From the NCBI RefSeq assembly GCF_006345805.1, contig NC_043015.1, positions 21,142,001-21,206,000 of the forward strand: a DNA stretch of 64,000 nt, given 5' to 3'. Position numbers and translations under genes: made by a program. The notes under the pieces were generated by a model. It was not told the origin of the DNA, made no database searches, and saw only the letters and a list, made by a program, of their open reading frames with translations. This DNA comes from Octopus sinensis (lineage: Eukaryota). This document shows, piece after piece, positions 1 to 47,170 of the stretch; the stretch's first letter is position 1; each line of letters starts with the position of its first letter.

Positions 1-1399
1 ATCAATGCAGCCCTTCTTTACACAAAATCTATATTAAGGTTCGTGTGTACGTGCGCCCTGTCAGAGACTCCACCCAAATATCTGAATAAGAATCAGAAAG
101 TATATATCAATGCAAAAACACATGTATGTATGTATGTTCGTATGTATACATGCGAATATGTATGTGTGTGTATGTTCATATGTATGCATATATATATATA
201 TATATATATATATGTTCGTGTGCTTGTGCCGCGATGAAACTCTTTGCGTGGCATCAACTCCCACATTGCTTCTTGACCAATTTCTGAATCACGCGCATAC
301 ATAGACATACGAACCATACCACACTCATGCATATACACGCACACACACATGCACACATACACACACACGCACGCACACTCAATAGAACGGGAAACGTAAA
401 AATTAATAATTCATTCCTCTTATCAATTTCATCGTAACCATGGCCAACAGATCAAAGACATAAGAATCGCTAGAATCAGATTACTTCAAAAGTTTCTGGC
501 GTTACTTAACGTAAATTCGCACGACGAATGTGAACAGATATTTTCAGGCATCTATTACTCCGTTTAGACCGAGATTTGTAACAAAGATGTCGTTATTATC
601 CCAAGGGGACAACAATATCTTCTACTTCATATCAAATCGTAACAGATGTCCATTCCTTTTATCTACATGTTTTTCCAATATCGTTGTCTTTTTGATAAGG
701 AAATTAAATATTTTTGCCGCAGGCACAATTTCTACTTTATATACATACTTACATACATACATACAAAACATACATATGTACAGATATTTACTTACATGCA
801 TACATATATTCTCAAACACATAAATAGAACACTACGTTGACATTATCGGAGATGAAGCGTGACATCAACATCACCTGCTACTATTACGCTGTCTATCACT
901 GAAGCTGACCGCTGTGTCAGGCCGCCATATATCGAAGGTAACTGACAAAATCCTGTAAGCGAATCTAGGAATAACATTGACAATGAGAACGACGAGTAGA
1001 AATATATGAAGAACATTCTAAATGAAGTCTTTGAAGTGAAACAAAATTTAAACCAAAACTTTGGGAAATGCGATATCTAACAAACCCCTCAAAAATAATC
1101 TGCGTTTAATGAGGCTTAAGAAAATCGAGTAGAAATCTTTTCAATGCTGTTAAGATTTTGTTTTTATTAATGTCGGTAGAGATGACTTCTAAATGATTGC
1201 AAAACATTACATTGGAAAGGTTGAAGGATGGAAGGAAGAAAGGTTGAAGGATAAAGGAAAGTTTGAAGGAGGATGGAAAGTTTGAAGAATGAAAAAAGGG
1301 CCTACGTTGGTTTTGAAAATTGAGAGAAAATTGATTAGTATACGGAGGATAATCCATATCATACACCAACGGATAAACAAATGCATTGAATAAACGGTG

Positions 1400-1800
1400 G
1401 AAAATGAAATAGAAATACTGTTTGGAAAAAAAATTGTTACAACTCAAATAGCAAAAAGCTCCCGCATAAGAGTAGAGTAGCTAAAAATAAAACTATTAAT
1501 ACAAATTTTGACTGAAAGCAATCAGTTGTATATAGAAATATGAGAGAACAATCAATAACTGTAGCAAAGTCTTTGTTCCAGAAAGACTCAGTCATTCTGG
1601 AGAAGGAAGTTTAATTAGAGTGCAGGAAAGTGAGAAGAAATACGGAATATATATTACCTTTGTATAGAACCAAAATTCTACAATTTGGTGAGATCGTGAC
1701 ACTGTGGTTCAAACAGTTCAGGATGCAAAAAGACCAGCAATGGACTTCATTGTCGGATTCTGATATTAAAAAGAAAATAATAGTAATGAAGTTTTTATTT
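1400..1800 (+). mobile_element. Highly decayed RLE-type (R4/NeSL-like) non-LTR retrotransposon fragment
   Basis: 1729-1773 translates KRPAMDFIVGF*Y*K, resembling the KAPGxDxIxGFWxKK motif preceding RT in R4-like elements; many stops. Confidence 0.3.
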
Positions 1801-2044
1801 ATGGTGAGAAAAGAGGGAGAATTCACTATCGCTGCAAGTAGAGGATTGAAATCATTTTAGTGCATGTATTTGATGGTGCACCGATGGACGAAGATATGCT
1901 GCGATCATCGCATCGTTGAAATAGAAACTTGAAGTCCTGTATGTGATTCTCTAACACACACACATCCACACATACAAGTATATATATATATGGAATGAGA
2001 TCACTGGTACAATCAAAATATTTCTCATGAGATGATACTATTTA

Positions 2045-2046
<2 letters not shown>

Positions 2047-2128
<82 letters not shown>
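2047..2128. repeat. (TCTA)n microsatellite
   Basis: Direct reading; the same repeat resumes after the adjacent SINE at ~2503. Confidence 0.95.
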
Positions 2129-2501
2129 GTGGAGGCGCAATGGTCTAGTGGGTAGGGCAGCGGATTCGTGGTCGTAGGATCGCGGTTTCGATTCCCAGAC
2201 CGACCGTTTTGAGTGTTTGAGCGAAAACACCTAAAGCTCCACAAGGTTCCGGCGGGGGTGGTGGTAAACCCTGCTGTACTCTTTCACCACATGTTTCTCT
2301 CATTCTTCTTGCTTCTGTTGTACCTGTATTTCAAAGGCCAGCCTTGTCACTCTGTGTCACGTTGAATGTCCCCCCGAGAACTACGTTAAGGGTACATATG
2401 TCTGTGGAGTGCTCAGCCACTTGCCCGTTAATTTCACAAACATGCTGTTCCGTTGATCGGATCAACTGGAACACTCGTCGTCGTAACCGACGGAGTGCCA
2501 C
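2129..2501 (+). mobile_element. tRNA-derived SINE, family A
   Basis: Head GGAGGCGCAATGGTCTAGTGG (A box) ... GGTTTCGATTCCC (B box); four similar ~375-bp copies in the window. Confidence 0.9.
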
Positions 2502-2574
2502 AATCTATCTATCTATCTATCTATGTGTTTGTCTGTCTGATTATTCGTCCGTCCGTCTATCTGCCTTCCTATAA

Positions 2575-2720
2575 ACGACGGGTTTGTTTTCAGTTTCCGT
2601 CTAACATATCCAATTATAAGGCGTTGGTCAGCCAAAGGCTACAGTTGAAAGTATTTGCCCAAGTGCCACGCAATGAGATTGAACCCGGAATCATGTGTCT
2701 GGGAAGCAACCCTTCTTAGT
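2575..2720 (-). mobile_element. SINE family C, 5' fragment
   Basis: Matches the head/core of the copies at 36994-37361 and 48760-49107. Confidence 0.7.
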
Positions 2721-2755
2721 ACGCATCTTTATGACACTATTCCGTCTGCTAGGTA

Positions 2756-3149
2756 AGGCGGCAAGGAGCTGGCAGAGACATTAGCACACCGGGCGAAATG
2801 CGTATCGGTATTTCGTCTGCCGCTACGCTCTGAGTTCAAATTCCGCCGGGGTCGACTTTGCCTTTCATCCTTTCGGGATCGATTAAATAAGTACCAGTTA
2901 CGCACTGGGGTCGATATAATCGACTTAATCCGTTTGTCCTTGTTTGTTTCCCCTGTGTTTAGCCCCTTGTGGGTAGTAAAGAAATAGGTATTTTGTGTCA
3001 CTTTACATTCTGAGCTCAAATTCGACTGAGTTCGACTTTGTCTTTCATCCTTTCGGCATCGATAAATTAAGTACCAGTTGCGTACAGGGGTTGATCTAAT
3101 CGACTGGCTCCCTCCCCAAACAGTTCGGGCCTTGTGCCTAGAGTAGAAA
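2756..3149 (+). mobile_element. SINE family B with internally duplicated body
   Basis: AAGGCGGC..GCTGGCAGA head, GAGTTCAAATTCC B-box-like motif present twice; copies at 11170 and 21709. Confidence 0.85.
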
Positions 3150-5241
3150 ATATTATTGTGTCTGCTTGGTCCTGAGCTGGAAGAACCGTTACTACGCCTC
3201 ACAAATTGCATAGCGGCATTTCTTCAGCATTTTCGGGCCAAATACAGTTTTTGCCGTGACTTAGCTCTTCATCTCTTCAACCGATAAAATAAATGTTAAT
3301 TGAGCTCTAGGTTCGATGCAATCGAATAGCTTCCACACTCTCGCAAAACTTAGGTCTTTTAACCTTAGCTGAAAGGATTATCTATTCTAGCTGCTCTAAA
3401 AAAAGAAAGAATAGATAAAATAAAAACCAGTAGAGCAGGATTTGGCAACGAAGTAACGGTATTGCAAAAAATATTCGGCGTCAGGCGGTGGAGGCAGTTT
3501 TGGTAGAACCCGCCTTTATTAACAAACATAATCAGCAAGACGAACTTTCATACCCTTTCTCACGTTTGTCTCAATCTGCGTCTCGTCTCGCTACGCCTGG
3601 GTCGAGGTACGTTTTAGCGACTACTTCTAGCAATCCGAGCAACCACATAGCGGTAAAGTATGACTATGCACTTGTGTATACGCGTAAATGTGTGTGTGTG
3701 TGTATGTGCGTGTATGTATGTGTGTGTGTGTGTGTGTGTGTGAACAACTACAATAAACATGAACAGCAACATAGTTTATTGTAGATGTTCATGGCGTTAT
3801 AATATACAACGGTTCACTGATTGACATTTAAAGTGAACTGGCTTTTGTGTGAATGTAATTTATGTGTCTGTGGCATTGTACATTGCTGATGGCCAATGTG
3901 TGTGTTTCTATCTGGGTGAGTGTGTGCGTACGTGTGTGAGTGTGGAAGTATGCGTGTGTGTATGTGTGTGCGCGTGCGTCTGTGAGTGTCGTGAATGAAA
4001 TTATGTGTGACAGTGTGTATGTATATGTGGGCGAATGTAGATAACAGCTTGTCAGCTTGTTACTATTATTCCGGTTCTTGACTATACACACAAACATATA
4101 TAGGTATGCATGTATGTATAAATGTATCCATCCATATATACATATATATATAACGGATATAATATATATATATATATGTGTGTGTGTGTGGTGTGTGTGT
4201 GTGTGCGCGCACACACATATACACAAGCATACAAATACACGGTTATGTACACACACACATATGCGTGTGGGATGGGCGCGTATTTATTACCATTTGATGT
4301 TTGAGACAGGAGTGTGTGTTGTCAACCATACTTGTCTATCCATCTCTCTCCCTCTCTGTCAACACACACATATATATATGTGTATATCTATATGTATGTA
4401 TGCCTATTGTTATTTCTGTGTATGTGTATACACACACACACACATGTGTGTGTGTGTGTGTGTGTACACACATTTGTATATGTAGGTATGTATGTTTGTG
4501 TATAAAACAATGACTGCACCCAGCAACAGGATAAACGAATAATGAATATCTGTCTATCGATCTTTTTATCCATTTTTATCGTTTTTTTTCGTTGCTATGG
4601 TTATTGCTTTTTGTCACCACACATTTCTTTAAACAGACATCACATCACAGTAGTTTCCAACGAATATCTTATAAATGTGAATCAGATCACACCCGATAAA
4701 GCACTCAGCCGAAACGAGTGTAGTGTGAGTAGCTGTAAAAATATATGTAAATGAACTCTACATCTGCATTATATAATATGTATTGACGAAGATGTCCACT
4801 TCGTTTTGTGTGTATTTACAAAGAATATAAGTGTATCTATGTATGGGTATTGTGATAGCACAATTCAAATAAAGAAAGAGTAAAATATTTATTTTAAATG
4901 AATGTAACAGTTATTCGTCTGCAGGTTACACTGGTTTCAGAATGAAGCAGACTGTGAGTTTGTAATGAAATTCTACATTCGTCAGGTCTTTGTAAGTAGT
5001 AAATAAAATTCATTTGTTATTTAGGAATGCCTGACGTATTGTAGGCTTTTTCGCTAGATCTACAAAGAATGATTGTTATATAAATATCGTAATAGCCTGC
5101 GTTTGATTAACTTTTATTCCGTATACAGATTAATAACTCTATATATGTGTGTGCGTCTCTATGTGCATGTTTGTGGGTGTACGTGTACATATACTTATTT
5201 ATGTGTATATTATATATAGATCTATGTGTGTGTGTGGGGGG

Positions 5242-5284
<43 letters not shown>

Positions 5285-5364
5285 GTGTGCGCGCGTGTAG
5301 AAAGTTGAAAAGGAACACATGGAAAAAGTCAAGGTAGAAAATGGTAAAATAGTTTTATAAAAAA

Positions 5365-5752
5365 CTAGCAATATCGCCCGGCGTTGCTCGGGTTTGTAAG
5401 GGAAATAACTATATAAGCATTTTTAGATATGTAAAGTATAATAGCCATCTCAATATGACTAACCACAAAGCGGGGGTGTTACTGTAGCTTTTTACGTTCT
5501 GAGATTTAATAATACATTTTTAGAGAGTTACTTATATAATAGCAAAAAATGAATTAAAAATGGGGAAAAATGATGGTAATTTTTTTTAAATCGTAGACTC
5601 ATCGTAGACGCGCGCTAATACCCAGAAGGCCTGGATATGAATCACGACTATAAGATACCCGCTTTTGGTTACACTGCACCGCAAAATGTGGGAGTAGTTA
5701 GGAATCTAAATCGTAGGAGACAGACACACAACTTCACTTTTATATATAAAGG
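5365..5752 (-). mobile_element. Non-autonomous Helitron
   Basis: Minus strand ends CCCGAGCAACGCCGGG hairpin then CTAG, begins CCTTTATATATAAAAG (variant of the TC start), sits between A and T with no TSD, and splits the fold-back arm cleanly. Confidence 0.75.
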
Positions 5753-5898
5753 TATTTCAGTGCCGGATTCAGTCATTGAGACTTTTTCAACAGTAATTTT
5801 TCAAAAGAATATTTGCATAGTATTTGAACACTATGCAAATATTTTTTTAAAAAGGTTTTCTTTTAATTTTTCCAAAATTTAATTGTTTTCCATACTTA

Positions 5899-5934
5899 TA
5901 ATTGAAAAAGTTCCAATGACTGAAACCGGTACTG
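5899..5934 (+). ncRNA. Candidate minimal type I hammerhead ribozyme, U3-A8 variant (helix I degraded)
   Basis: TTGAAAA-AGTT ccaat GACT-GAAA-CCGGTA-CTG; palindromic ACCGGT in helix III, GUA triplet. Confidence 0.55.
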
Positions 5935-6700
5935 AAATGCTTTCTATAAAATTATTTTAGCAATTTCTACTTTGACTTTTTCGATATATATGTATATATA
6001 TATATATATATGTATAAGGATGAAAAAGAACACACGAGTTGATATATATGAACAAATAGGTCAGGATAGAAAATGCTAAAATGATTTTATAAAGAACATT
6101 TCAGTACAGGTTTCAGTCATTTTCAACTGTAACAATTAAATAATTAAATTTAGAAAAATTAAAAGAAAAGTTTTTTTTTAAGAATAGTGGCATTTATAAT
6201 ATTAGTGGCATTTTCCTTGTTTCTGCCTTTCTCTGTCTCTCTTGTTTACTCTTGTGGGTTCGAGGTCGTGGTGAATTCTTGGTTGGGAAGAAGAAGAAGG
6301 AGGAGGAGGAGGATGAGAAGAAGGGGAGGAAGAAGACAAAGAATTTGGGAGTGCCTTGATTGTTGCATTTTGAATGGTCAGTGGAGGCTAGCATTTGCTG
6401 TTCAATTCATGAAAATATTTCTATTGAAAGTTTTGTTTATAGAATTTGCGCAGGTGTTATACTAAAAAGCATTAGTGATGAAGTTAAGAAGGAGAAGGAA
6501 GGAGAAGGGGGTGAAGAAGAAGAAGAAGAAGAAGAAGAAGAAGAAGAAGAAGAAGAAGAAGAAAGAGAAGGGAGAATATGAATGAGTGAAAGTAGTGAGA
6601 TGTTGGATGACTTAAAGTTGGCACGTTATGGAGTATAGCAGTGATTGAGGCTGATTTTTAATGGATTCTTAGGAATTTAATATTTGCGTGTGTATTTGTG

Positions 6701-7000
6701 TTACTCTAAGACCGAGACGGCTATATCGTTTGTCGTAGACGCGTTCAAAAGGGGCCTGTGTTTTGTAATAAAGAGAGTTTCTTTACTAATTCGTTGGCTC
6801 CAGGTTGCATCGTCCCTGAATTGGTACAGGGGAAAAATCCTGAAGCTTGGAGTTTTGTTGTTGGCGCAAATACCTATGTGTTTGCTGAATGCTATTTTTC
6901 TGATTTGGGGAATTTTTATCTGGGATCTGTGCATGGCCATTCTTTTACTTAAACTATTTTTTGTTTGGCCTATGACACCCAGAGCAAGTTAGTGTGTATA
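6701..7000 (-). pseudogene. PLE GIY-YIG endonuclease C-terminal remnant
   Basis: YTLTCSGC/IGQTKNSLSKRMAMHRSQIK..SKHIGIC..FRIFPLYQ..RISKETLFITKHRPLLN fits the GIY-YIG pattern (IY..C..C..YIGQT..R..H..E..I..P.LN); frameshifting deletion near 6975. Confidence 0.8.
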
Positions 7001-7517
7001 CCAGGTTCTCCGAAGCACGCGTGAAGTTGCTTTTCCCTGTTTGAAGGAGAACTCTGATCCCTCAAGTAGATCATCGCATATCCCACAATTGGGTCTTCCA
7101 CATTTTCTTTACTGTCGGCTTCTGTGTTGGTGAGCGTATTCGGGCTTGTGTTAGGAGACTTTTCATAGATTTGGGTTGTCTCTTGCTTTTTATGATCGTG
7201 TGTGTTTGGAGGATTAAGTTCATTCTGTGGTCCTTTTTTAGCAGCCTCGACTGCTAGCCTCCCTGCTAGCCTCCACTGACCATTCAAAATACTACAATCA
7301 AGGCACTTCCAAATTCTTCGTCTTCTTCTTCCCCTTCTCTTCCTCCTTCTTCTTTCCTAACAAGAATTCACCACGAACGACCTCGAAACCATAAGAGTAA
7401 ACAAGAGAGACAGAGAAAGGCAGAAACAAGGAAAATGTCACTTACATTTGAACACTAAACAAATATTCTTTAAAAAAAACTTTTCTTTTAATTTTTCTAA
7501 ATTTAATTATTTAATCG

Positions 7518-7559
7518 TTACAGTTGAAAAGGTCTCAATGACTGAAAGCGGTACTGAAA
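7518..7559 (+). ncRNA. Candidate minimal type I hammerhead ribozyme, U3-A8 variant
   Basis: CAG-TTGAAAA-GGTC tcaat GACT-GAAA-GCGGTA-CTG; helix I CAG/CTG, helix II GGTC/GACT. Confidence 0.6.
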
Positions 7560-7693
7560 TGTTCTTTATAAAATCATTTTAGCATTTTCTCTCTTGATTT
7601 GTTTTTTCATATTTATATATATTGGCTTATGATTTTCACTGTTTAATTTGCCTAATAGTGGTTTTATCTCAAATTTAATATGATATATATATA

Positions 7694-7733
<40 letters not shown>

Positions 7734-7742
<9 letters not shown>

Positions 7743-8265
7743 GGGTAATAAGAATTATAGAAAATTTTTATTACCAGTGGCCAAGCGCAAAAACTTTTGT
7801 CAAAAGCCTATATATTATTCATATAAAACATCGTGTACATTAAAACACATTAAGTGGCTTCCATCATAGGAAAGCCTTGCGCTAGAAAGAACAGTTAAAA
7901 CTTCAAACCACTAATTAGGGATAAATTCTCGAAAGGAATGAAAATTTAAAAAATATTTACCATCTAATTTAATTCCTAGACCATGGTTTCTGACTTATTT
8001 CGAGGTTTTAATGGCATCCTCTCGTTGCGTTTTCGCAGTGGATTTGAAAAGTTAGAATATACAAACAATGAGTTTACATGCGGAATCGATCTCGTTGTGT
8101 GTATATTTAAGATCTAAAGGCTACTTACTGATGAAGACTGGCCTCATGTAGCACCTATTATCTATCTTATTTACTCCACTACCTTATCTTACTCCACAAA
8201 TTGTAAACAAAATGATGATATATTGTAACATGTTCAACAGGATGCAACTAGTTATAAGTCAGAAC
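7734..8265. mobile_element. Probable PLE pseudo-LTR fragment with split hammerhead halves
   Basis: Begins at the edge of a (TA)n tract; CTTA-CTGATGA-AGACT at 8124-8139 (+) and AGTCA-GAAACCATGGTC-TAGG at 7975-7995 (-). Confidence 0.4.
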
Positions 8266-16686: not shown

Positions 16687-16809
16687 TAATAATAAATAAA
16701 TAAATAATATATAGTACAGTACAGTTTCTACTTCGCAGTTTTCAACTATTGCGGAGGCTTCTGGAACGTAACACCGCGATAGTCGAAGGATTACTCTGTT
16801 GTGTGTATA

Positions 16810-17017: not shown

Positions 17018-17073
<56 letters not shown>

Positions 17074-17181
17074 TAATCCTTCGACTATCGCGGGTGTTAC
17101 GTTCCAGAAGCCTCCGCAATAGTTGAAATCTGCGAAGTAGAAACTGTACTGTACTATATATTATTTATTTATTTATTATTA
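16687..17181. repeat. Near-perfect ~110-bp inverted repeat flanking a ~270-bp (TA)n-rich tract
   Basis: 16687-16795 vs 17072-17181, two differences seen; the inner end CAGTAATCCTTCGACTATCGCG resembles a pogo/Tigger-type TIR. Confidence 0.9.
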
Positions 17182-17663: not shown

Positions 17664-17709
17664 ACCACAACGTCTCTGCTGATACACCCTCCAGCCTTCA
17701 TCAGGTGTA
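17664..17709 (-). ncRNA. Minimal hammerhead copy with A14G mutation
   Basis: TACAC-CTGATGA-A-GGCTG..CAGCA-GAGA-CGTT-GTG. Confidence 0.55.
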
Positions 17710-17883: not shown

Positions 17884-17929
17884 GACACCTGATGAAGGCT
17901 GGAGGGTATATCAGCTGAAAAGTCGTGTT
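17884..17929 (+). ncRNA. Minimal type I hammerhead ribozyme candidate
   Basis: GACAC-CTGATGA-A-GGCTG gagggtatat CAGCT-GAAA-AGTC-GTGTT; helix I GACAC/GTGTT, GUC triplet. Confidence 0.7.
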
Positions 17930-22164: not shown

Positions 22165-22278
22165 CATCATTAGGAATGAGAACGCAGTTTCGAAATTTCC
22201 CCAAGACACCCGATGTTGTGCTAATAGCAAACAAGACGAGGACAAATATCCGTCAAATGTAAATAACGTAAATAATGT
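21913..22278 (-). mobile_element. Non-autonomous HHR palindrome element, copy 2
   Basis: Same structure as 17617-18011 in opposite orientation with an (ATT)n centre; 12-bp TSD GGTATTTCG(T/C)CT at 21901-21912 and 22279-22290. Confidence 0.85.
22005..22050 (-). ncRNA. Minimal type I hammerhead ribozyme candidate
   Basis: GATAC-CTGATGA-A-GGCTG gagggcatat CAGCC-GAAA-CATT-GTGTT. Confidence 0.7.
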
Positions 22279-38202: not shown

Positions 38203-39029
38203 CAGCCGTGAAGCGATTATACATTGTGACGAGAAATTTCCTATTCAAAAAAACCTATATAATCATCAATCGATAATACACAAACGACTAACGCGATTAT
38301 CGTAACGACTTATTGTTAATTGTTTTGTCAATTGCGATCAAAGCTTCCGGTCAGGCATGATGGGAGCTGGTATTGGGTAAGGGAAGTGAAATGATTGAAT
38401 GAATTGACTATTTACCATGTGCAGTCACGCTCACCCTAGTTCCCTACACTCTTTCAAACTATTAGGATGTGCTACTTACCTGTCAATTATAAATGCGATC
38501 CCTAACCTGTTGGCACCCCTTTCATGAAACACAATGTTTCCAAGGACCCGGCGATCACGCGCATAACAAAATACAATGAATCGCATAATACATAATACAT
38601 AATACACACACACCACACACACACACACATAAACACAAACACACAGACAGACACACACACAGACACACAGGCATACACACTCAGAAACACATATGTGTGT
38701 GTGTATATATATATATACACACGCAGTACACATATGATACATATATAATGCAAAACGACGCTGCAGACTGTGATAGTTAAGAAAGTAGATATAAATGAAA
38801 ATTTTTCCTGCGCTGCGCAGTAGCAAGTGATCCTCAGCCCTGTACTAGTCTAGGGTTTTGTGGTTGAGTATTCCTGATTTATACTGCCATTTTATATTGT
38901 GGTCTCAAATCAACCAATCAACCTTTCTTACACCCTTTCTATTAAAAAGGAACTCCATACACATTATAGCATTTTAAACATTTCTCATTGAAGAGTTAGA
39001 CGATGACTGCTGAGTATATTTTGTGTGGA

Positions 39030-40300
39030 TTTTTCTTGTTAGATTTTTCTTTCTAGCTTTTACTTCATTTTGAACTGCTTTGTTTATATATAATAGATCA
39101 TGCCTTCCTCTAGTCTTCTTCCTGTCACCTTTTTGTTCTTCTGGGAGTAAATTTCGGTTTTGAAGGTGCTCGTAAATGCTTTCTGAAACCATTTCTGTTA
39201 ACAGCTTCCACACTAATGGTGAGCCAGTGATTGGTCTATAGTGGTTATCTGTACTACCCTTGCTATTATATTGTATGGTGTGTCCTCCCTTAATCACCCA
39301 ATTTGGTATTATTTTTCCATTAAGGCAATCCTGAAGTTGTTCTCTCAGTCCCCCATGTAAACTACTAAATTTCTTTAGCCAGTACCATGGCCCTTCCAAT
39401 TCGGCAATTTTCTAGCTTCTTTTGCATTAGGTTTCTCATCTTCAGTACTTCGTTCTCCGCTGTTCTGTGTCGGATAATCTAGTGATACTGATGTATTTTT
39501 TCTGATATCTGGAGAGCCTTATTACTACTGCTATGACACACTGTTTCAGCTCTTCTATTTCTGTCCCAAATCCATTCTTTTTGAATAAGTGTCTTTTCTC
39601 AAGGGAAGATTTGCTTCTTGTGTTTCCTAACTTGTTCAGCTTCCCAGCTTCTATTCTACTTAGGTCTTGTCTTAAAGTCTTCACTTTATTTTGTATTCTT
39701 GTTATCCACATTGGCTCTTTTTAAATCTTTCCCTGTGGGATATCTTATCTTCTAGTCACTACTATTTCTCATACATAGTTAGTGTCTCCTATATTTTTAG
39801 TATCTATCCTACTGATAACAGAACATTCCTAGTCATTTCTAGAAGCTTCCTTCTGTTGGTACCTTTTAATGCTGGCAATCTTTACATTCTGCAACTCATC
39901 TAAAATCGTCTGATCTTCCTCGCTCAAATCATTTAAGTCGCTGCTGCCATTTGTCCCTTCCTAATTGGTAGCGCTATTATTATATTCTCCTTTAGGTTCT
40001 TCTTTGGTTTGAGCTGTAATTCTTATGTTGTGGTTTGCCTTTCCCACTGCCTGGTCTTTCTTCTCCAGTTCTCATGTAATCTCTTCTACTTCCAATTCTG
40101 TCATCCAATTTCTTCTCCCAATAATATTAGCTTGATCAACTAATCTCTGCTCTGTCAATTTAAACATACCCTTCTTTACCCAAAGTGTTAACATCGTTTT
40201 CTATAGCCCCCTTCTTTTAGGTTCACTTTCTAAGTAGCACTGCATCAATATCCTGTTTTCTTCGCTGCTACACTTCTTCCTCCTTGTCTGCTGTTGTATT
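39030..40300 (-). mobile_element. R4/Dong-like non-LTR retrotransposon, N-terminus to early RT, decayed
   Basis: LTEQRLVDQA; PMWITRIQNKVKTLRQDLSRI; YWLKKFSSLH..YRPIT..WKLLT..LLPEEQKG..DLLYINKAV. Confidence 0.85.
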
Positions 40301-44160: not shown

Positions 44161-44399
44161 GCCATAATGAATCTGGCAAAAGAGCTACAAATGAACATAA
44201 CATTCCAGTCATCACACGATGCCACCCCCACCACCCTATCGCACAAACTCCCTTTGCTGCCATTAATAAACAAACAATCACCATTAACAATCACCAATAC
44301 AGTCAAAACCAGTCACCATTATCGCCTCAACCTTTTTGCTCAATGCACAAGGCACCAGCCCTTCCACCGATGCCCAGAAATGGGATATCCAATTTATTG

Positions 44400-47170
44400 A
44401 GGACTGGGTTAATGGTAATCCACACCATACCCCTTTTTCCCTCCTCACAGTGACCCATCTCAATAACCTTCACGTGGAAGCTGAGATGAGAGTGAAGAAT
44501 TTTACAGCCATCCATGCAGATCATGTCGGCAGAAGAAAGGGTGGGACCGCCATTTTCGTGCACGATACTTTTTCGGCTGAACCAATGGACGTATTTACAA
44601 ACGGCTACTGTAAAGCAGCTTCTGTGTTTAGTAAAGCCAACAATTTAATAGTAGTTGAACTCTATAGGTGACTCCTAACTCCTTTCCTACGCTTCAAGGA
44701 ATGTCTCGACAGTATTAAGTGTTTCGTTCATCAGTGTCATGCTGGCAACATATTAATGATGGGGGACTTCAATCTTCCCAGTGTTGATTGGTCCACAAAC
44801 AGTTTGAAACCAATTTTTTCACCTCAACCCTTGATAAGGAAGCAATCGAACTGATTTTTGATTTCATGGATGAGCTTTTCCTGACCCAACTTGTTCGTGA
44901 ACCAACAAAGTGTGACAAAAACACTTTGGACCTATTGTTCAGTAACCACACTGACATTATCCTCAGTATTGCAGTGGAAAAACACCAGTACTCTCAGACC
45001 ATGGCACGGTTCTCTGCGACCTGAGATTCTACCACCCAAAGATCAAATCCAGTAGCATCTCTCCAGTCCATCCATTTGACACTATGGATCTTCATAACGC
45101 AGACTGGGTTGCGATCAATCATGATCTTTCACAAGTTGATTGGGCCTTCGCGCACGCACACACTCCCACTAACATAAGCATATCATGGCATACATTTGTA
45201 GATACTATGATAAATATATGCGTAGAACATACTCCATTAAGATCAGTATACAAATCTAAGTGCATAATTCCTAGAAATAGAAGAGTAATTATCAGAAAAA
45301 TAAAATGAATTAACAAGAAAATCAATCAACTTAAATTCTGCCAGTAGCAACGCACCCATTCGACTGCCATTGCTTCACTCAAATCGAAAAACACGACCAC
45401 CAAAAAAGCATGATGACCATCATTAGCAGCCAAAGACAGCTGAATAGAGTTGGGCCACCGAGAAAACAAGACACTATCTCAAAATGTTCTTTCCTTTTGT
45501 AAAAAAAAAAGCAACATAGAGACAGCTTCCACTGTTGGTCCTCGGGTTGATGAGAACTACACTCTACATGATGTCTTCAGTAATGTTAATGCGGTTGATG
45601 TGGCTAGTATCAGTGATGTAAACCCTCAACTAACCACATCTGACATAACTTTTAGTGCTCCTGATATCCTAACAGAAATAGATAAGATCAAGCACAACTC
45701 GGCAGAAGGTCCTGATAAGTTCCCGGTCACTGTCCTGAAGATGTGTCGACATCAACTTGCACCCCCTCTAGCTGAGCTCTGCAGAAACTCACTTGATGCA
45801 GGCTACATTCCTCATCATTTTCTATCCCAGTCTGTTGTTCAAGTCTTCAAAAAGGGAAACAAATCTCTTGCAGTGAACTACCGTCCAATTTCACTCACTT
45901 CTCATATCATTAAAGTATTTGAAAGAGTGGTGAGATCGCGAATAACCGACTTCCACGAAGACAACAATCTGCTGAACCCCAACCAGAATGGTTTCTCTGA
46001 TGTCAGGGAATGGCTGTCGCAGCTTTTGTACCATTTTGATGAACTCTTAAAGCGTTGGGAGAAGACTCCAACACTGACGTCATATGTCTTGATTTCAGCA
46101 AGGCTTTTGACAGAGTGGACCACAAAATCCTGCTGAAGAAAATTTTCATCATTGGAGTCCGTTGAAAGCTGCTGCAGTGGATAAAGTGCTTCGTGACAAA
46201 CAGAGCTCAACAGGATGTGTTTGAGGGAATACGATCCAGCTAAGCCAAAGTCAGAAGTGGTCTCCCGCAAGGTACTGTGTTGGGCCCGTTCCTCTTCATT
46301 ATTTACATCAATGACATAGGAGATGTCATCAGACATTTTACATTGAAAATCTTTGTAGATGATTCCAAACTTCAGAAATCCATAACCGGCATGGGAGACG
46401 GAACATGCCTTCAGTCATATCTGTTTGCTATTGTGCAATGGGCGGTAAATATGCTTTTAAATGAAGATAAGTTTGATTTGATCCACTTTGGAAAAGAGGG
46501 AACTCTGAAATTACCATACGCGCTTCCCTTGAGCAACTCCCTAGTGTCATCCAACAACACAAGAGACCTTGGAGTAATTGTTGATAACAATCTAAGCTGG
46601 AGTTCCCACATAAACAGCAAGGTTGACTTGGCCCGCAAGATATGCTCCTGGATTCGGAGAACTTTTCAGTCTAGAGATGCCTGCACCATCATCCATCTGT
46701 ACCCTAATTTTGCCCGATTCCTCCTTGAATACTGTTGCCCACTGTGGTCTCCCCATACGAAGCAACTCATTCTGAAAGTAGAAGCACTCCAGAGGTCAAT
46801 AACAAGAAATATAGACAGCATGAGAGACATTGATTATTGGAGTCGGCTAAAAAAACTCAATTTCTGCTCTCTTCAACGTCGCCGGGAGCAGTACATCATG
46901 TATGTTAAGTGGAAAATATTCCATCAATATTGCACAAATGATGCTGACATCAGTTTTAAAATCCATTGGTCCCCGTGCTATCCGCCCTCTACAAAAATCG
47001 AACTCGGTACACATAGTAACATTATGTCACAATTATTTTACTTCAACCGGACAAGCTCTCTTTAATACCATACCAAAATACGTCAAAACGGAAACGGATC
47101 TCATAAAATTCAAATGTTCATTGGACAAATTTCTTCAAAAAATCTTATTAAAATTCATGTCCGGCTAATC
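44400..47170 (+). mobile_element. CR1/L2-group LINE, near-complete APE+RT ORF2 disrupted by stops and frameshifts
   Basis: GGTAIFV, GDFNLP, NTLDLLF (APE); GPDKFP, NYRPISLTSHIIKVFE, DFSKAFDRVDH, GLPQGTVLGPFLFIIYIND, FVDDSK, RDLGVIVD, LEYCCPLWSP (RT). Confidence 0.95.

What the first reader, a model, noticed from the sequence alone, without database searches (positions are those of the whole stretch)
5758..7559. Hammerhead family with compensatory U3-A8 core (UUGAAAA)
Seen: four copies (5758-5796 -, 5899-5934 +, 6102-6132 -, 7518-7559 +) give consensus CAG-UUGAAAA-AGUC ucaau GACU-GAAACCGGUA-CUG. Established: C3-G8 is a tertiary Watson-Crick pair and U3-A8 is a tolerated covariant. Both changes occur in all four copies, so this is a family-level trait that CUGANGA searches would miss. 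The ACCGGU palindrome predicts dimer-dependent cleavage after GUA. Each copy here has at least one lesion.
Basis: partly seen in the sequence, partly recalled or inferred. Interest (0 to 1): 0.75.

Follow-up and report, generated by a model that had tools for sequence, protein, structure and literature searches.

The report
Penelope-element hammerhead with U3-A8 core
The four motifs are decayed copies of the small self-cutting hammerhead RNA carried by a very abundant Penelope-like jumping gene, and their unusual U-A core pair, although real and family-wide, is already published for this kind of element.

Summary
The four motifs are real and lie in the pseudo-LTR arms of two 5'-inverted insertions of a decayed Penelope-like retrotransposon: copies 1+2 (5300-5985) and copies 3+4 (6018-7616). 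The second insertion keeps a frameshifted C-terminal GIY-YIG endonuclease with the Neptune/Nematis-type zinc-finger linker. So these are two insertion events, not four independent copies, and A8 in copy 3 is ambiguous. The family-level claim still holds: contigs from four runs (four organism labels, 1,203-3,097 laid each) list no other letter at 3% or more at U3 or A8, and restore ACCGGU at 99.5% or more. Related elements carry a matching hammerhead downstream of the endonuclease, usually C3-G8 with a palindrome, often the same CCGG. The novelty fails: U3-A8, including the exact UUGAAAA core, palindromic helix III and dimer-dependent cleavage, is published for Penelope-element hammerheads (PMC4209133), and natural U3-A8 covariation earlier (PMC3088659). 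This scan noted the same variant on other DNA (e1-7786987, e1-7789481). The local copies are probably inert; cleavage by the family consensus is untested. Verdict: new member of a known kind, low interest.

The parts
5758..5796 (-). Hammerhead copy 1 (U3 5790, A8 5785); lesions at stem I (5792), A15.1 (5767) and U16.1 (5762)
5899..5934 (+). Hammerhead copy 2 (U3 5902, A8 5907, A17 5931); 5' strand of stem I altered, palindrome intact
6102..6132 (-). Hammerhead copy 3 (U3 6126), sense to the endonuclease remnant and about 615 nt downstream of it; 8-nt deletion in stem II with ambiguous ends, CCUG instead of CCGG
7518..7559 (+). Hammerhead copy 4 (U3 7524, A8 7529, stem II 7531-7534/7540-7543, GAAA 7544-7547, predicted cut after A17 7553); private G7548 breaks the palindrome
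6701..7247 (-). Frameshifted remnant of the element's C-terminus: RT-EN linker, Cx4Cx2C zinc finger, GIY-YIG endonuclease with CCHH residues; no RT left
6042..6393 (-). Sense (3') pseudo-LTR arm of insertion B
   Evidence: 83.7% inverted match to 7264-7616
7264..7616 (+). Inverted 5' pseudo-LTR arm of insertion B; inversion junction near 7263
6018..6041 (-). One-sided 'tail' extension of insertion B, next to a (TA)n tract
   Evidence: the same letters are the loose-end consensus behind 7616 in runs X1 and X2; tail described in PMC8557442 and PMC11167929
5822..5985 (+). Plus arm of insertion A (carries copy 2), ends in (TA)n
   Evidence: 79% match to 7446-7622
5745..5853 (-). Minus arm of insertion A, first part (carries copy 1); 5798-5853 is the self-palindromic inversion junction
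5300..5365 (-). Minus arm of insertion A, second part, with tail-like letters at 5304-5318, next to a (CA)n tract
5366..5744 (-). Later insertion that splits the minus arm of insertion A; hairpin plus CTAG at its 3' end, Helitron-like (label recalled)

Best explanation
The motif is the minimal type-I hammerhead ribozyme of the pseudo-LTR of a high-copy Penelope-like retrotransposon with a C-terminal endonuclease (Neptune/Nematis type), in an animal genome that is probably a mollusc (cephalopod-like; inferred). The master element carried U3-A8 in place of C3-G8, which keeps the tertiary 3-8 Watson-Crick pair and the 2'-OH at position 8. Helix III is only the 6-nt palindrome ACCGGU, too weak to close in one molecule. 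Two copies on a tandem element transcript (or on two transcripts) would pair their palindromes, possibly helped by the element's protein, and cut after GUA to trim the precursor RNA. Shown here: element anatomy, family-wide U3-A8 and ACCGGU, homologous motifs at the same place in relatives. Inferred from papers: dimer cleavage, protein help, RNA processing. The four local copies are by-products of two 5'-truncated, 5'-inverted insertions into microsatellites; all are damaged and probably inert.
For: Endonuclease remnant: 226 representatives at E<=0.001. Of 11 hits scanned with Pfam, 9 carry GIY-YIG and 5 carry RVT_1 upstream. The remnant maps to the C-terminal residues 562-741 of a 745-aa RT-EN protein. 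Inverted arms, one-sided tail and microsatellite targets match the published anatomy (PMC8557442). Contigs of four runs list no other letter at 3% or more at 7524 or 7529, and C at 7548 in 99.5-99.9%. In 80 related loci a descriptor with free positions 3 and 8 and no palindrome filter gave 22 hits, 18 on the sense strand outside the ORF. Of those 18, 17 have a Watson-Crick 3-8 pair (9 C-G, 6 U-A, 2 A-U) and 16 a perfect palindrome; shuffles gave 0.3 Watson-Crick hits and no palindromic hit per set. Of 18 closer loci with at least 300 nt after the endonuclease, 16 have a hammerhead there (14 C3-G8, 2 U3-A8), 9 with CCGG. The ACCGGU self-duplex scores -8.3 kcal/mol; the monomeric hammerhead fold scores +2.8. 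Literature: PMC4209133, PMC3088659.
Against: No cleavage was measured. No Rfam hammerhead family matched. A covariance model built only from 13 C3-G8 relatives did not pick out the copies (best E 1.1), though it also missed the canonical C3-G8 motifs of the window and so lacks power. The 10.1-11.1 pair is mostly A-U or G-U rather than the usual G-C. In cofolding, a competing CGGUACUG self-duplex and a core-loop II pairing (-19.8) beat the one-site active dimer (-16.2; second stem I not counted). In the anole element the hammerhead did not cut without protein and was not needed for insertion in vitro (PMC11167929).
Confidence: 0.88

Rival explanations
1. Same descent, but the family's hammerhead is a catalytically dead or nearly dead relic: C3>U and G8>A are both AT-ward transitions that rode along in a master element that does not need the ribozyme.
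For: Non-canonical 10.1-11.1 pair in most copies, short stem I, competing folds. Naiads proliferate without hammerheads (PMC8557442). Hammerhead mutants still insert in vitro (PMC11167929).
Against: Among relatives positions 3 and 8 change together: 17 of 18 sense hits are Watson-Crick, none C-A or U-G. The palindrome is kept. Of 13 C3-G8 relatives 6 have no standard 10.1-11.1 pair and 1 has A-U, so a relaxed pair is normal in this group. U3-A8 ribozymes are reported active in vitro (PMC3088659).
Confidence: 0.3
2. Chance resemblance: an AT-rich repeat end that happens to spell UUGAAAA...GAAA...UA and has nothing to do with hammerheads.
For: The U3-A8 descriptor hits 13 of 100 shuffled windows, and one unrelated repeat in this window (16745, minus strand) matches it. 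No Rfam or covariance-model support.
Against: The motif lies where related elements keep a C3-G8 hammerhead, on the same strand, with the same GAAA-CCGG-UH and short stem II. No second hammerhead candidate was found in 5300-7620 by the descriptor.
Confidence: 0.04
3. The copies are a non-autonomous retrozyme or a host-domesticated ribozyme cluster that works at this locus through dimers of copies 1+3 or 2+4.
For: Copies 1 and 3 are on one strand 344 nt apart. Animal retrozymes are proposed to derive from pseudo-LTRs (bioRxiv 10.64898/2026.07.22.740005).
Against: The copies are inverted arms, not tandem units. Every copy is damaged. In folds of 5740-6200 on either strand copies 2 and 3 pair with each other as a long hairpin. 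The stem III duplex of copies 4+2 is only -4.7 kcal/mol.
Confidence: 0.03

Closest known systems
Minimal hammerheads of metazoan Penelope-like elements, U3-A8 variant (S. mansoni Cercyon; Cervera and De la Pena 2014, PMC4209133)
   Same: Type-I minimal fold in the pseudo-LTR of a Penelope-like element; U3-A8 core; S. mansoni(4) in Fig. S3 has the same UUGAAAA; opposite-strand pairs 100-700 bp apart in truncated elements; predicted to cut as a dimer.
   Different: The S. mansoni motifs have an extra nucleotide after A9, G10.1-C11.1, a longer helix II and no helix III insert. This family has no extra nucleotide, a 4-bp helix II closed mostly by A-U or G-U, and a 4-nt palindromic insert.
Palindromic-helix-III hammerheads of shrimp, mosquito and rotifer Penelope-like elements (PMC4209133, Fig. 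S3; Marsupenaeus japonicus row)
   Same: No extra nucleotide, A10.1-U11.1, 4-bp helix II, 6-nt palindromic helix III and A17, as read from the text of that row.
   Different: The shrimp motif has the canonical C3-G8 core.
Neptune/Nematis-type Penelope-like elements (Craig et al. 2021, PMC8557442)
   Same: C-terminal GIY-YIG with CCHH and a CX2-5CxxC linker, inverted 5'-truncated copy, one-sided tail, microsatellite targets, hammerhead in the pseudo-LTR.
   Different: RT is missing from the local copies; Neptune and Nematis were not told apart.
Natural U3-A8 hammerheads (Perreault et al. 2011, PMC3088659)
   Same: C3-G8 replaced by U3-A8 in several natural examples; the swap is reported active in vitro.
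   Different: The section read does not describe a dimer-type transposon motif like this one.

Membership tests
Hammerhead ribozyme (type I) | Core boxes N3 UGA N N8 A and GAAA, UH site, Watson-Crick 3-8 pair | tested here: met
   Consensus and copies 2 and 4; U3 and A8 in more than 97% of depth in four runs. Copy 1 fails at 15.1/16.1; copy 3 is ambiguous at position 8.
Hammerhead ribozyme (type I) | Helices I and II can form around the core | tested here: met
   Consensus and copy 4 form both in the lowest-energy fold. Stems covary in 13 relatives (86.5% of cells paired, 0 of 500 shuffles), but those rows were chosen with my descriptor, so the count leans towards the structure.
Hammerhead ribozyme (type I) | Conserved G10.1-C11.1 pair | tested here: not met
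   A at 10.1 in 29-58% and C at 11.1 in only 5-20% of depth. Not strictly required: 6 of 13 relatives are G-C; A-U in the shrimp row; U-U reported.
Hammerhead ribozyme (type I) | Match to a curated Rfam hammerhead model | tested here: not met
   No family at gathering score in the window; none of 11 weak matches in 5200-7800 is a hammerhead. The canonical C3-G8 minimal motifs at 17889 and 22045 are also missed at gathering score, so Rfam does not cover this subtype well.
Hammerhead ribozyme (type I) | Site-specific self-cleavage | not testable with these tools
   Needs an assay.
Dimer-type hammerheads of Penelope-like elements | Short palindromic helix III, unstable as a monomer | tested here: met
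   ACCGGU is the family majority; duplex -8.3, monomer fold +2.8 kcal/mol.
Dimer-type hammerheads of Penelope-like elements | Located in the pseudo-LTR, sense to and downstream of the ORF | tested here: met
   Copy 3 lies about 615 nt after the endonuclease end on the same strand; relatives have theirs in the 3' flank.
Penelope-like element with C-terminal endonuclease (Neptune/Nematis) | C-terminal GIY-YIG with CCHH and CX2-5CxxC linker | tested here: met
   The remnant itself has no Pfam hit; the assignment comes through its homologues.
Penelope-like element with C-terminal endonuclease (Neptune/Nematis) | Telomerase-like RT upstream in the same ORF | tested here: inconclusive
   Absent locally because of the 5' truncation and inversion near 7263; present in homologues.
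Penelope-like element with C-terminal endonuclease (Neptune/Nematis) | Inverted 5'-truncated copy, one-sided tail, microsatellite target | tested here: met
   Both insertions.
Penelope-like element with C-terminal endonuclease (Neptune/Nematis) | Placement in the Neptune or Nematis clade against named references | not tested
   No named reference elements were at hand; my trees hold unnamed loci only.
Non-LTR retrozyme | Tandem non-coding units, each with a hammerhead | tested here: not met
   The copies are inverted arms, one pair flanking an endonuclease remnant.

The most novel reading that the evidence does not exclude
The 3-8 pair of Penelope-element hammerheads is a recurrently switched tuning position (C-G, U-A and also A-U; a single origin of U3-A8 is rejected among 17 loci). 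In this family U3-A8, a weak 10.1-11.1 pair and a competing GUAC self-duplex together keep the ribozyme off until the element's protein refolds it. The family, with U3-A8 fixed and 10.1-11.1 segregating as A-U, G-U or G-C, would be a natural mutant series for testing whether attenuated, protein-switched cleavage is selected.
Probability: 0.15. Interest if true: 0.45.

Novelty: new member of a known kind. Interest (0 to 1): 0.15.

Why it matters
Little as a discovery: it adds one more abundant Penelope-element family, probably from a cephalopod, to the published U3-A8 hammerheads. Its practical value is as a reminder that CUGANGA-only searches undercount these motifs: 8 of 17 Watson-Crick sense hits in related loci were not C3-G8. 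It is also a convenient family for asking whether these weak ribozymes cut at all in vivo, which is still open (PMC8557442, PMC11167929).

Tried and rejected
No whole genome is held, so copy number and linkage of variants could not be counted. Rfam: nothing at gathering score; no hammerhead among 11 weak hits. Pfam on six window fragments: no GIY-YIG hit, one chance HemY_N at E 0.09. Word-index protein search among longer proteins: 61 candidates, none significant. Exact family pattern in metagenome contigs: 0 matches. Sequencing runs: no RNA holder listed, which says nothing about expression. A covariance model from 13 C3-G8 relatives gave no significant hit in the window, not even on canonical motifs: inconclusive. 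Endonuclease tree of 17 rows (window remnant plus 16 loci): the remnant is poorly placed, and a clade with the two U3-A8 relatives L007 and L030 is not rejected (p-AU 0.42, 5,000 replicates), so an independent origin of U3-A8 in this family is not shown. A loop II pseudoknot with the upstream AUUG was considered and dropped: T at 7516 is the minority letter. Linkage of G7531 with C7543 cannot be read from the table. Two papers recalled as relevant are not held and were not read: Lunse et al. on dimer cleavage and Przybilski and Hammann on 3-8 exchanges. One of the supplementary files of PMC4209133 was not searched, and part 3 of file 2 was not read. The supplements of PMC8557442 were not opened and may list this family.

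Full report
Observation. In hammerhead numbering it reads: stem I CAG; core U3 U4 G5 A6 A7 A8 A9; stem II of 4 bp with a 5-nt loop; G12 A13 A14 A15.1; CCGG; U16.1 A17; stem I CUG. Every copy is damaged. Copy 1 has a stem I mismatch and changes at 15.1 and 16.1. Copy 2 has lost the closing pairs of stem I. Copy 3 has an 8-nt deletion in stem II whose ends share AA, so its A8 is not certain. Copy 4 has G7548 in the palindrome. With a descriptor needing 3-bp stems I and II only copy 4 matches, and 13 of 100 block-shuffled windows give at least one U3-A8 hit (mean 0.14). A single copy is therefore not beyond chance; the evidence has to come from context.

Context. The window is AT-rich, microsatellite-rich animal DNA. 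The nearest Atlas clusters of the one coding remnant are eukaryotic, commonest phylum Mollusca, and two of the three show GIY-YIG on 15-23% of members. That the repeats look like those of octopus is recalled, not tested. The minus strand from 7247 to 6701 holds a frameshifted ORF end. Its 95-aa open piece has no Pfam hit but finds 226 representatives at E<=0.001. Of 11 of these scanned, 9 carry GIY-YIG and 5 carry RVT_1 upstream, in proteins of about 720-770 aa when full length. tblastn maps the remnant to the linker, the Cx4Cx2C zinc finger and the endonuclease at the C-terminus of such proteins (50% identity to the best hit). By PMC8557442 (passages) a C-terminal endonuclease with CCHH and this linker marks Neptune/Nematis elements.

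Anatomy. Copies 3 and 4 lie in a 350-nt inverted repeat (6042-6393 and 7264-7616, 83.7%) around the remnant. The sense arm runs about 24 nt further into a (TA)n tract, and contigs laid on the other arm continue with the same letters: this is the one-sided tail described in PMC8557442 and PMC11167929. Copies 1 and 2 form a second, shorter inverted insertion (5300-5985) with its junction at 5798-5853, tail-like letters at 5304-5318 and a later 379-nt insertion at 5366-5744. So the four copies come from two insertion events, the two members of each pair lie on opposite strands, and agreement among them is weak evidence for a family trait.

Family level. I laid contigs of 4 of the 24 listed runs (four organism labels, three studies) on 7356-7625 at 80% likeness; 3,097, 2,026, 1,818 and 1,203 records were laid. 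No other letter at 3% or more is listed at 7524 (U3) or 7529 (A8), where depth is high. C stands at 7548 in 99.5-99.9% of depth, so ACCGGU is the family form. The most variable places inside the motif are the two sides of the 10.1-11.1 pair: A for G at 7531 in 29-58% and C for U at 7543 in 5-20%; further C-bearing contigs appear as loose ends. Linkage between the two cannot be read. A more distant C3-G8 sister family below 80% likeness would not have been laid, and contigs drop rare variants.

Relatives. An alignment of seven RT-EN homologues fetched the best 80 of 270 confirmed loci from metagenome contigs. A descriptor with free positions 3 and 8 and no palindrome filter gave 22 hits: 2 inside ORFs, 2 antisense and 18 sense outside the ORF, in 17 loci. 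Of the 18, 17 have a Watson-Crick 3-8 pair (9 C-G, 6 U-A, 2 A-U) and 16 have a perfect palindrome from 15.1 to 16.1. Twenty shuffles gave 0.3 Watson-Crick and 1.75 other hits per set, none palindromic. Of the 18 loci with at least 40% identity to the query, an endonuclease end and at least 300 nt of 3' flank, 16 have a hammerhead in that flank: 14 C3-G8 (three pairs share the same motif) and 2 U3-A8; 9 have CCGG; none was found in L005 or L016 (the relaxed scan required a Watson-Crick 3-8 pair). In 13 C3-G8 relatives the 10.1-11.1 position is G-C in 6, A-U in 1 and unpaired in 6, so a weak pair there is usual for this group. On an RT tree of 17 hammerhead-bearing loci a single clade of the six U3-A8 loci is rejected (p-AU 0.0003), so the swap recurs. 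Whether this family's U3-A8 is independent of L007 and L030 is unresolved (p-AU 0.42). Against: Rfam gave no hammerhead match, and a model trained on C3-G8 relatives found nothing significant in the window, canonical motifs included.

Mechanism. The monomeric hammerhead fold of the consensus scores +2.8 kcal/mol, the ACCGGU self-duplex -8.3, and a dimer with one active site -16.2. The lowest-energy cofold (-19.8) instead uses an overlapping CGGUACUG self-duplex and pairs the core with loop II (the second stem I of a double hammerhead is not counted, and tertiary contacts are not modelled). This fits a weak, dimer-dependent ribozyme. PMC4209133 reports no cleavage for a single S. mansoni motif and low cleavage for dimers and trimers. 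PMC11167929 reports that the anole element's hammerhead cuts only with protein, that C3G and G8C kill it and the double mutant partly rescues it, and that cleavage is not needed for insertion in vitro. I put descent from the element's hammerhead at about 0.9 and cleavage by the family consensus at about 0.6. At this locus activity is unlikely: all copies are damaged, and copies 2 and 3 pair with each other on either strand.

What is known. PMC4209133 (main text parts 1-2 of 4, supplement file 2 parts 1-2 of 3) reports U3-A8 in Cercyon hammerheads of S. mansoni, about 1,300 hits with a dedicated descriptor, a UUGAAAA row in Fig. S3, opposite-strand pairs in truncated elements, and palindromic helix III variants in flies, rotifers, shrimp and mosquitoes; its shrimp row has the same layout as this family apart from the core pair. 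PMC3088659 (section 8 and passages) reports natural U3-A8 covariation and earlier in vitro activity. Also seen: PMC6765202, PMC6155905 and PMC3884650 (passages), PMC11167929 (parts 1-2 of 4 and passages), and bioRxiv 10.64898/2026.07.22.740005 (part 1 of 5). Searches for octopus or cephalopod with Penelope and hammerhead or ribozyme listed no paper whose title or abstract describes this family (listings only); the library lacks most subscription papers. Earlier notes of this scan on other genomes reached the same verdict; I had read the paper before seeing them.

Verdict. The feature is a new member of a published kind: a U3-A8 minimal hammerhead in the pseudo-LTR of a Penelope-like element. 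Interest 0.15.

Noticed in passing
window 17889 (+), 22045 (-), decayed partner near 17700 (-), partial 22192-22266 (+): A second repeat family with a canonical C3-G8 minimal hammerhead (extra A after A9, G10.1-C11.1 in the 22045 copy, no helix III insert), in inverted pairs (one of them around a trinucleotide tract); probably pseudo-LTRs of another Penelope-like family.
   Followed up: partly
window 16708-16795 (-) and 17072-17160 (+): An unrelated 89-nt inverted pair (97.8% alike) around a (TA)n tract; one arm matches the U3-A8 descriptor at 16745, the other has U at position 8. It resembles a Tigger/pogo terminal repeat (recalled); probably a chance match.
   Followed up: partly
L056:1969 and L079:1969: Two related elements carry well-formed minimal hammerheads with an A3-U8 pair. 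One search for that wording found no paper; the Lunse et al. paper could not be read.
   Followed up: partly
L018, L020, L021, L029, L032, L035, L045 (3' flanks): Close relatives have a U10.1-U11.1 mismatch closing stem II together with C3-G8 and CCGG; a U-U start of stem II is mentioned in PMC3088659.
   Followed up: partly
L007:2979, L030:1790: The two U3-A8 relatives of the closer group have a 10-nt palindromic helix III instead of the 6-nt one.
   Followed up: no
window 5366-5744: A 379-nt later insertion, single in the window, ending on the minus strand in a short hairpin and CTAG; Helitron-like (recalled).
   Followed up: partly
window 7537-7581 (+) and the matching parts of the other arms: An ATG inside loop II/stem II opens a short frame that runs across the cleavage site and stops at a TAG seen in copies 2, 3 and 4. 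In the anole element the main ORF starts in stem II (PMC11167929); here the true start is unknown.
   Followed up: no
window 44288-47062 (+) and 38977-39720 (-): Decayed LINE-type endonuclease and reverse-transcriptase frames, read by eye from the translations.
   Followed up: no
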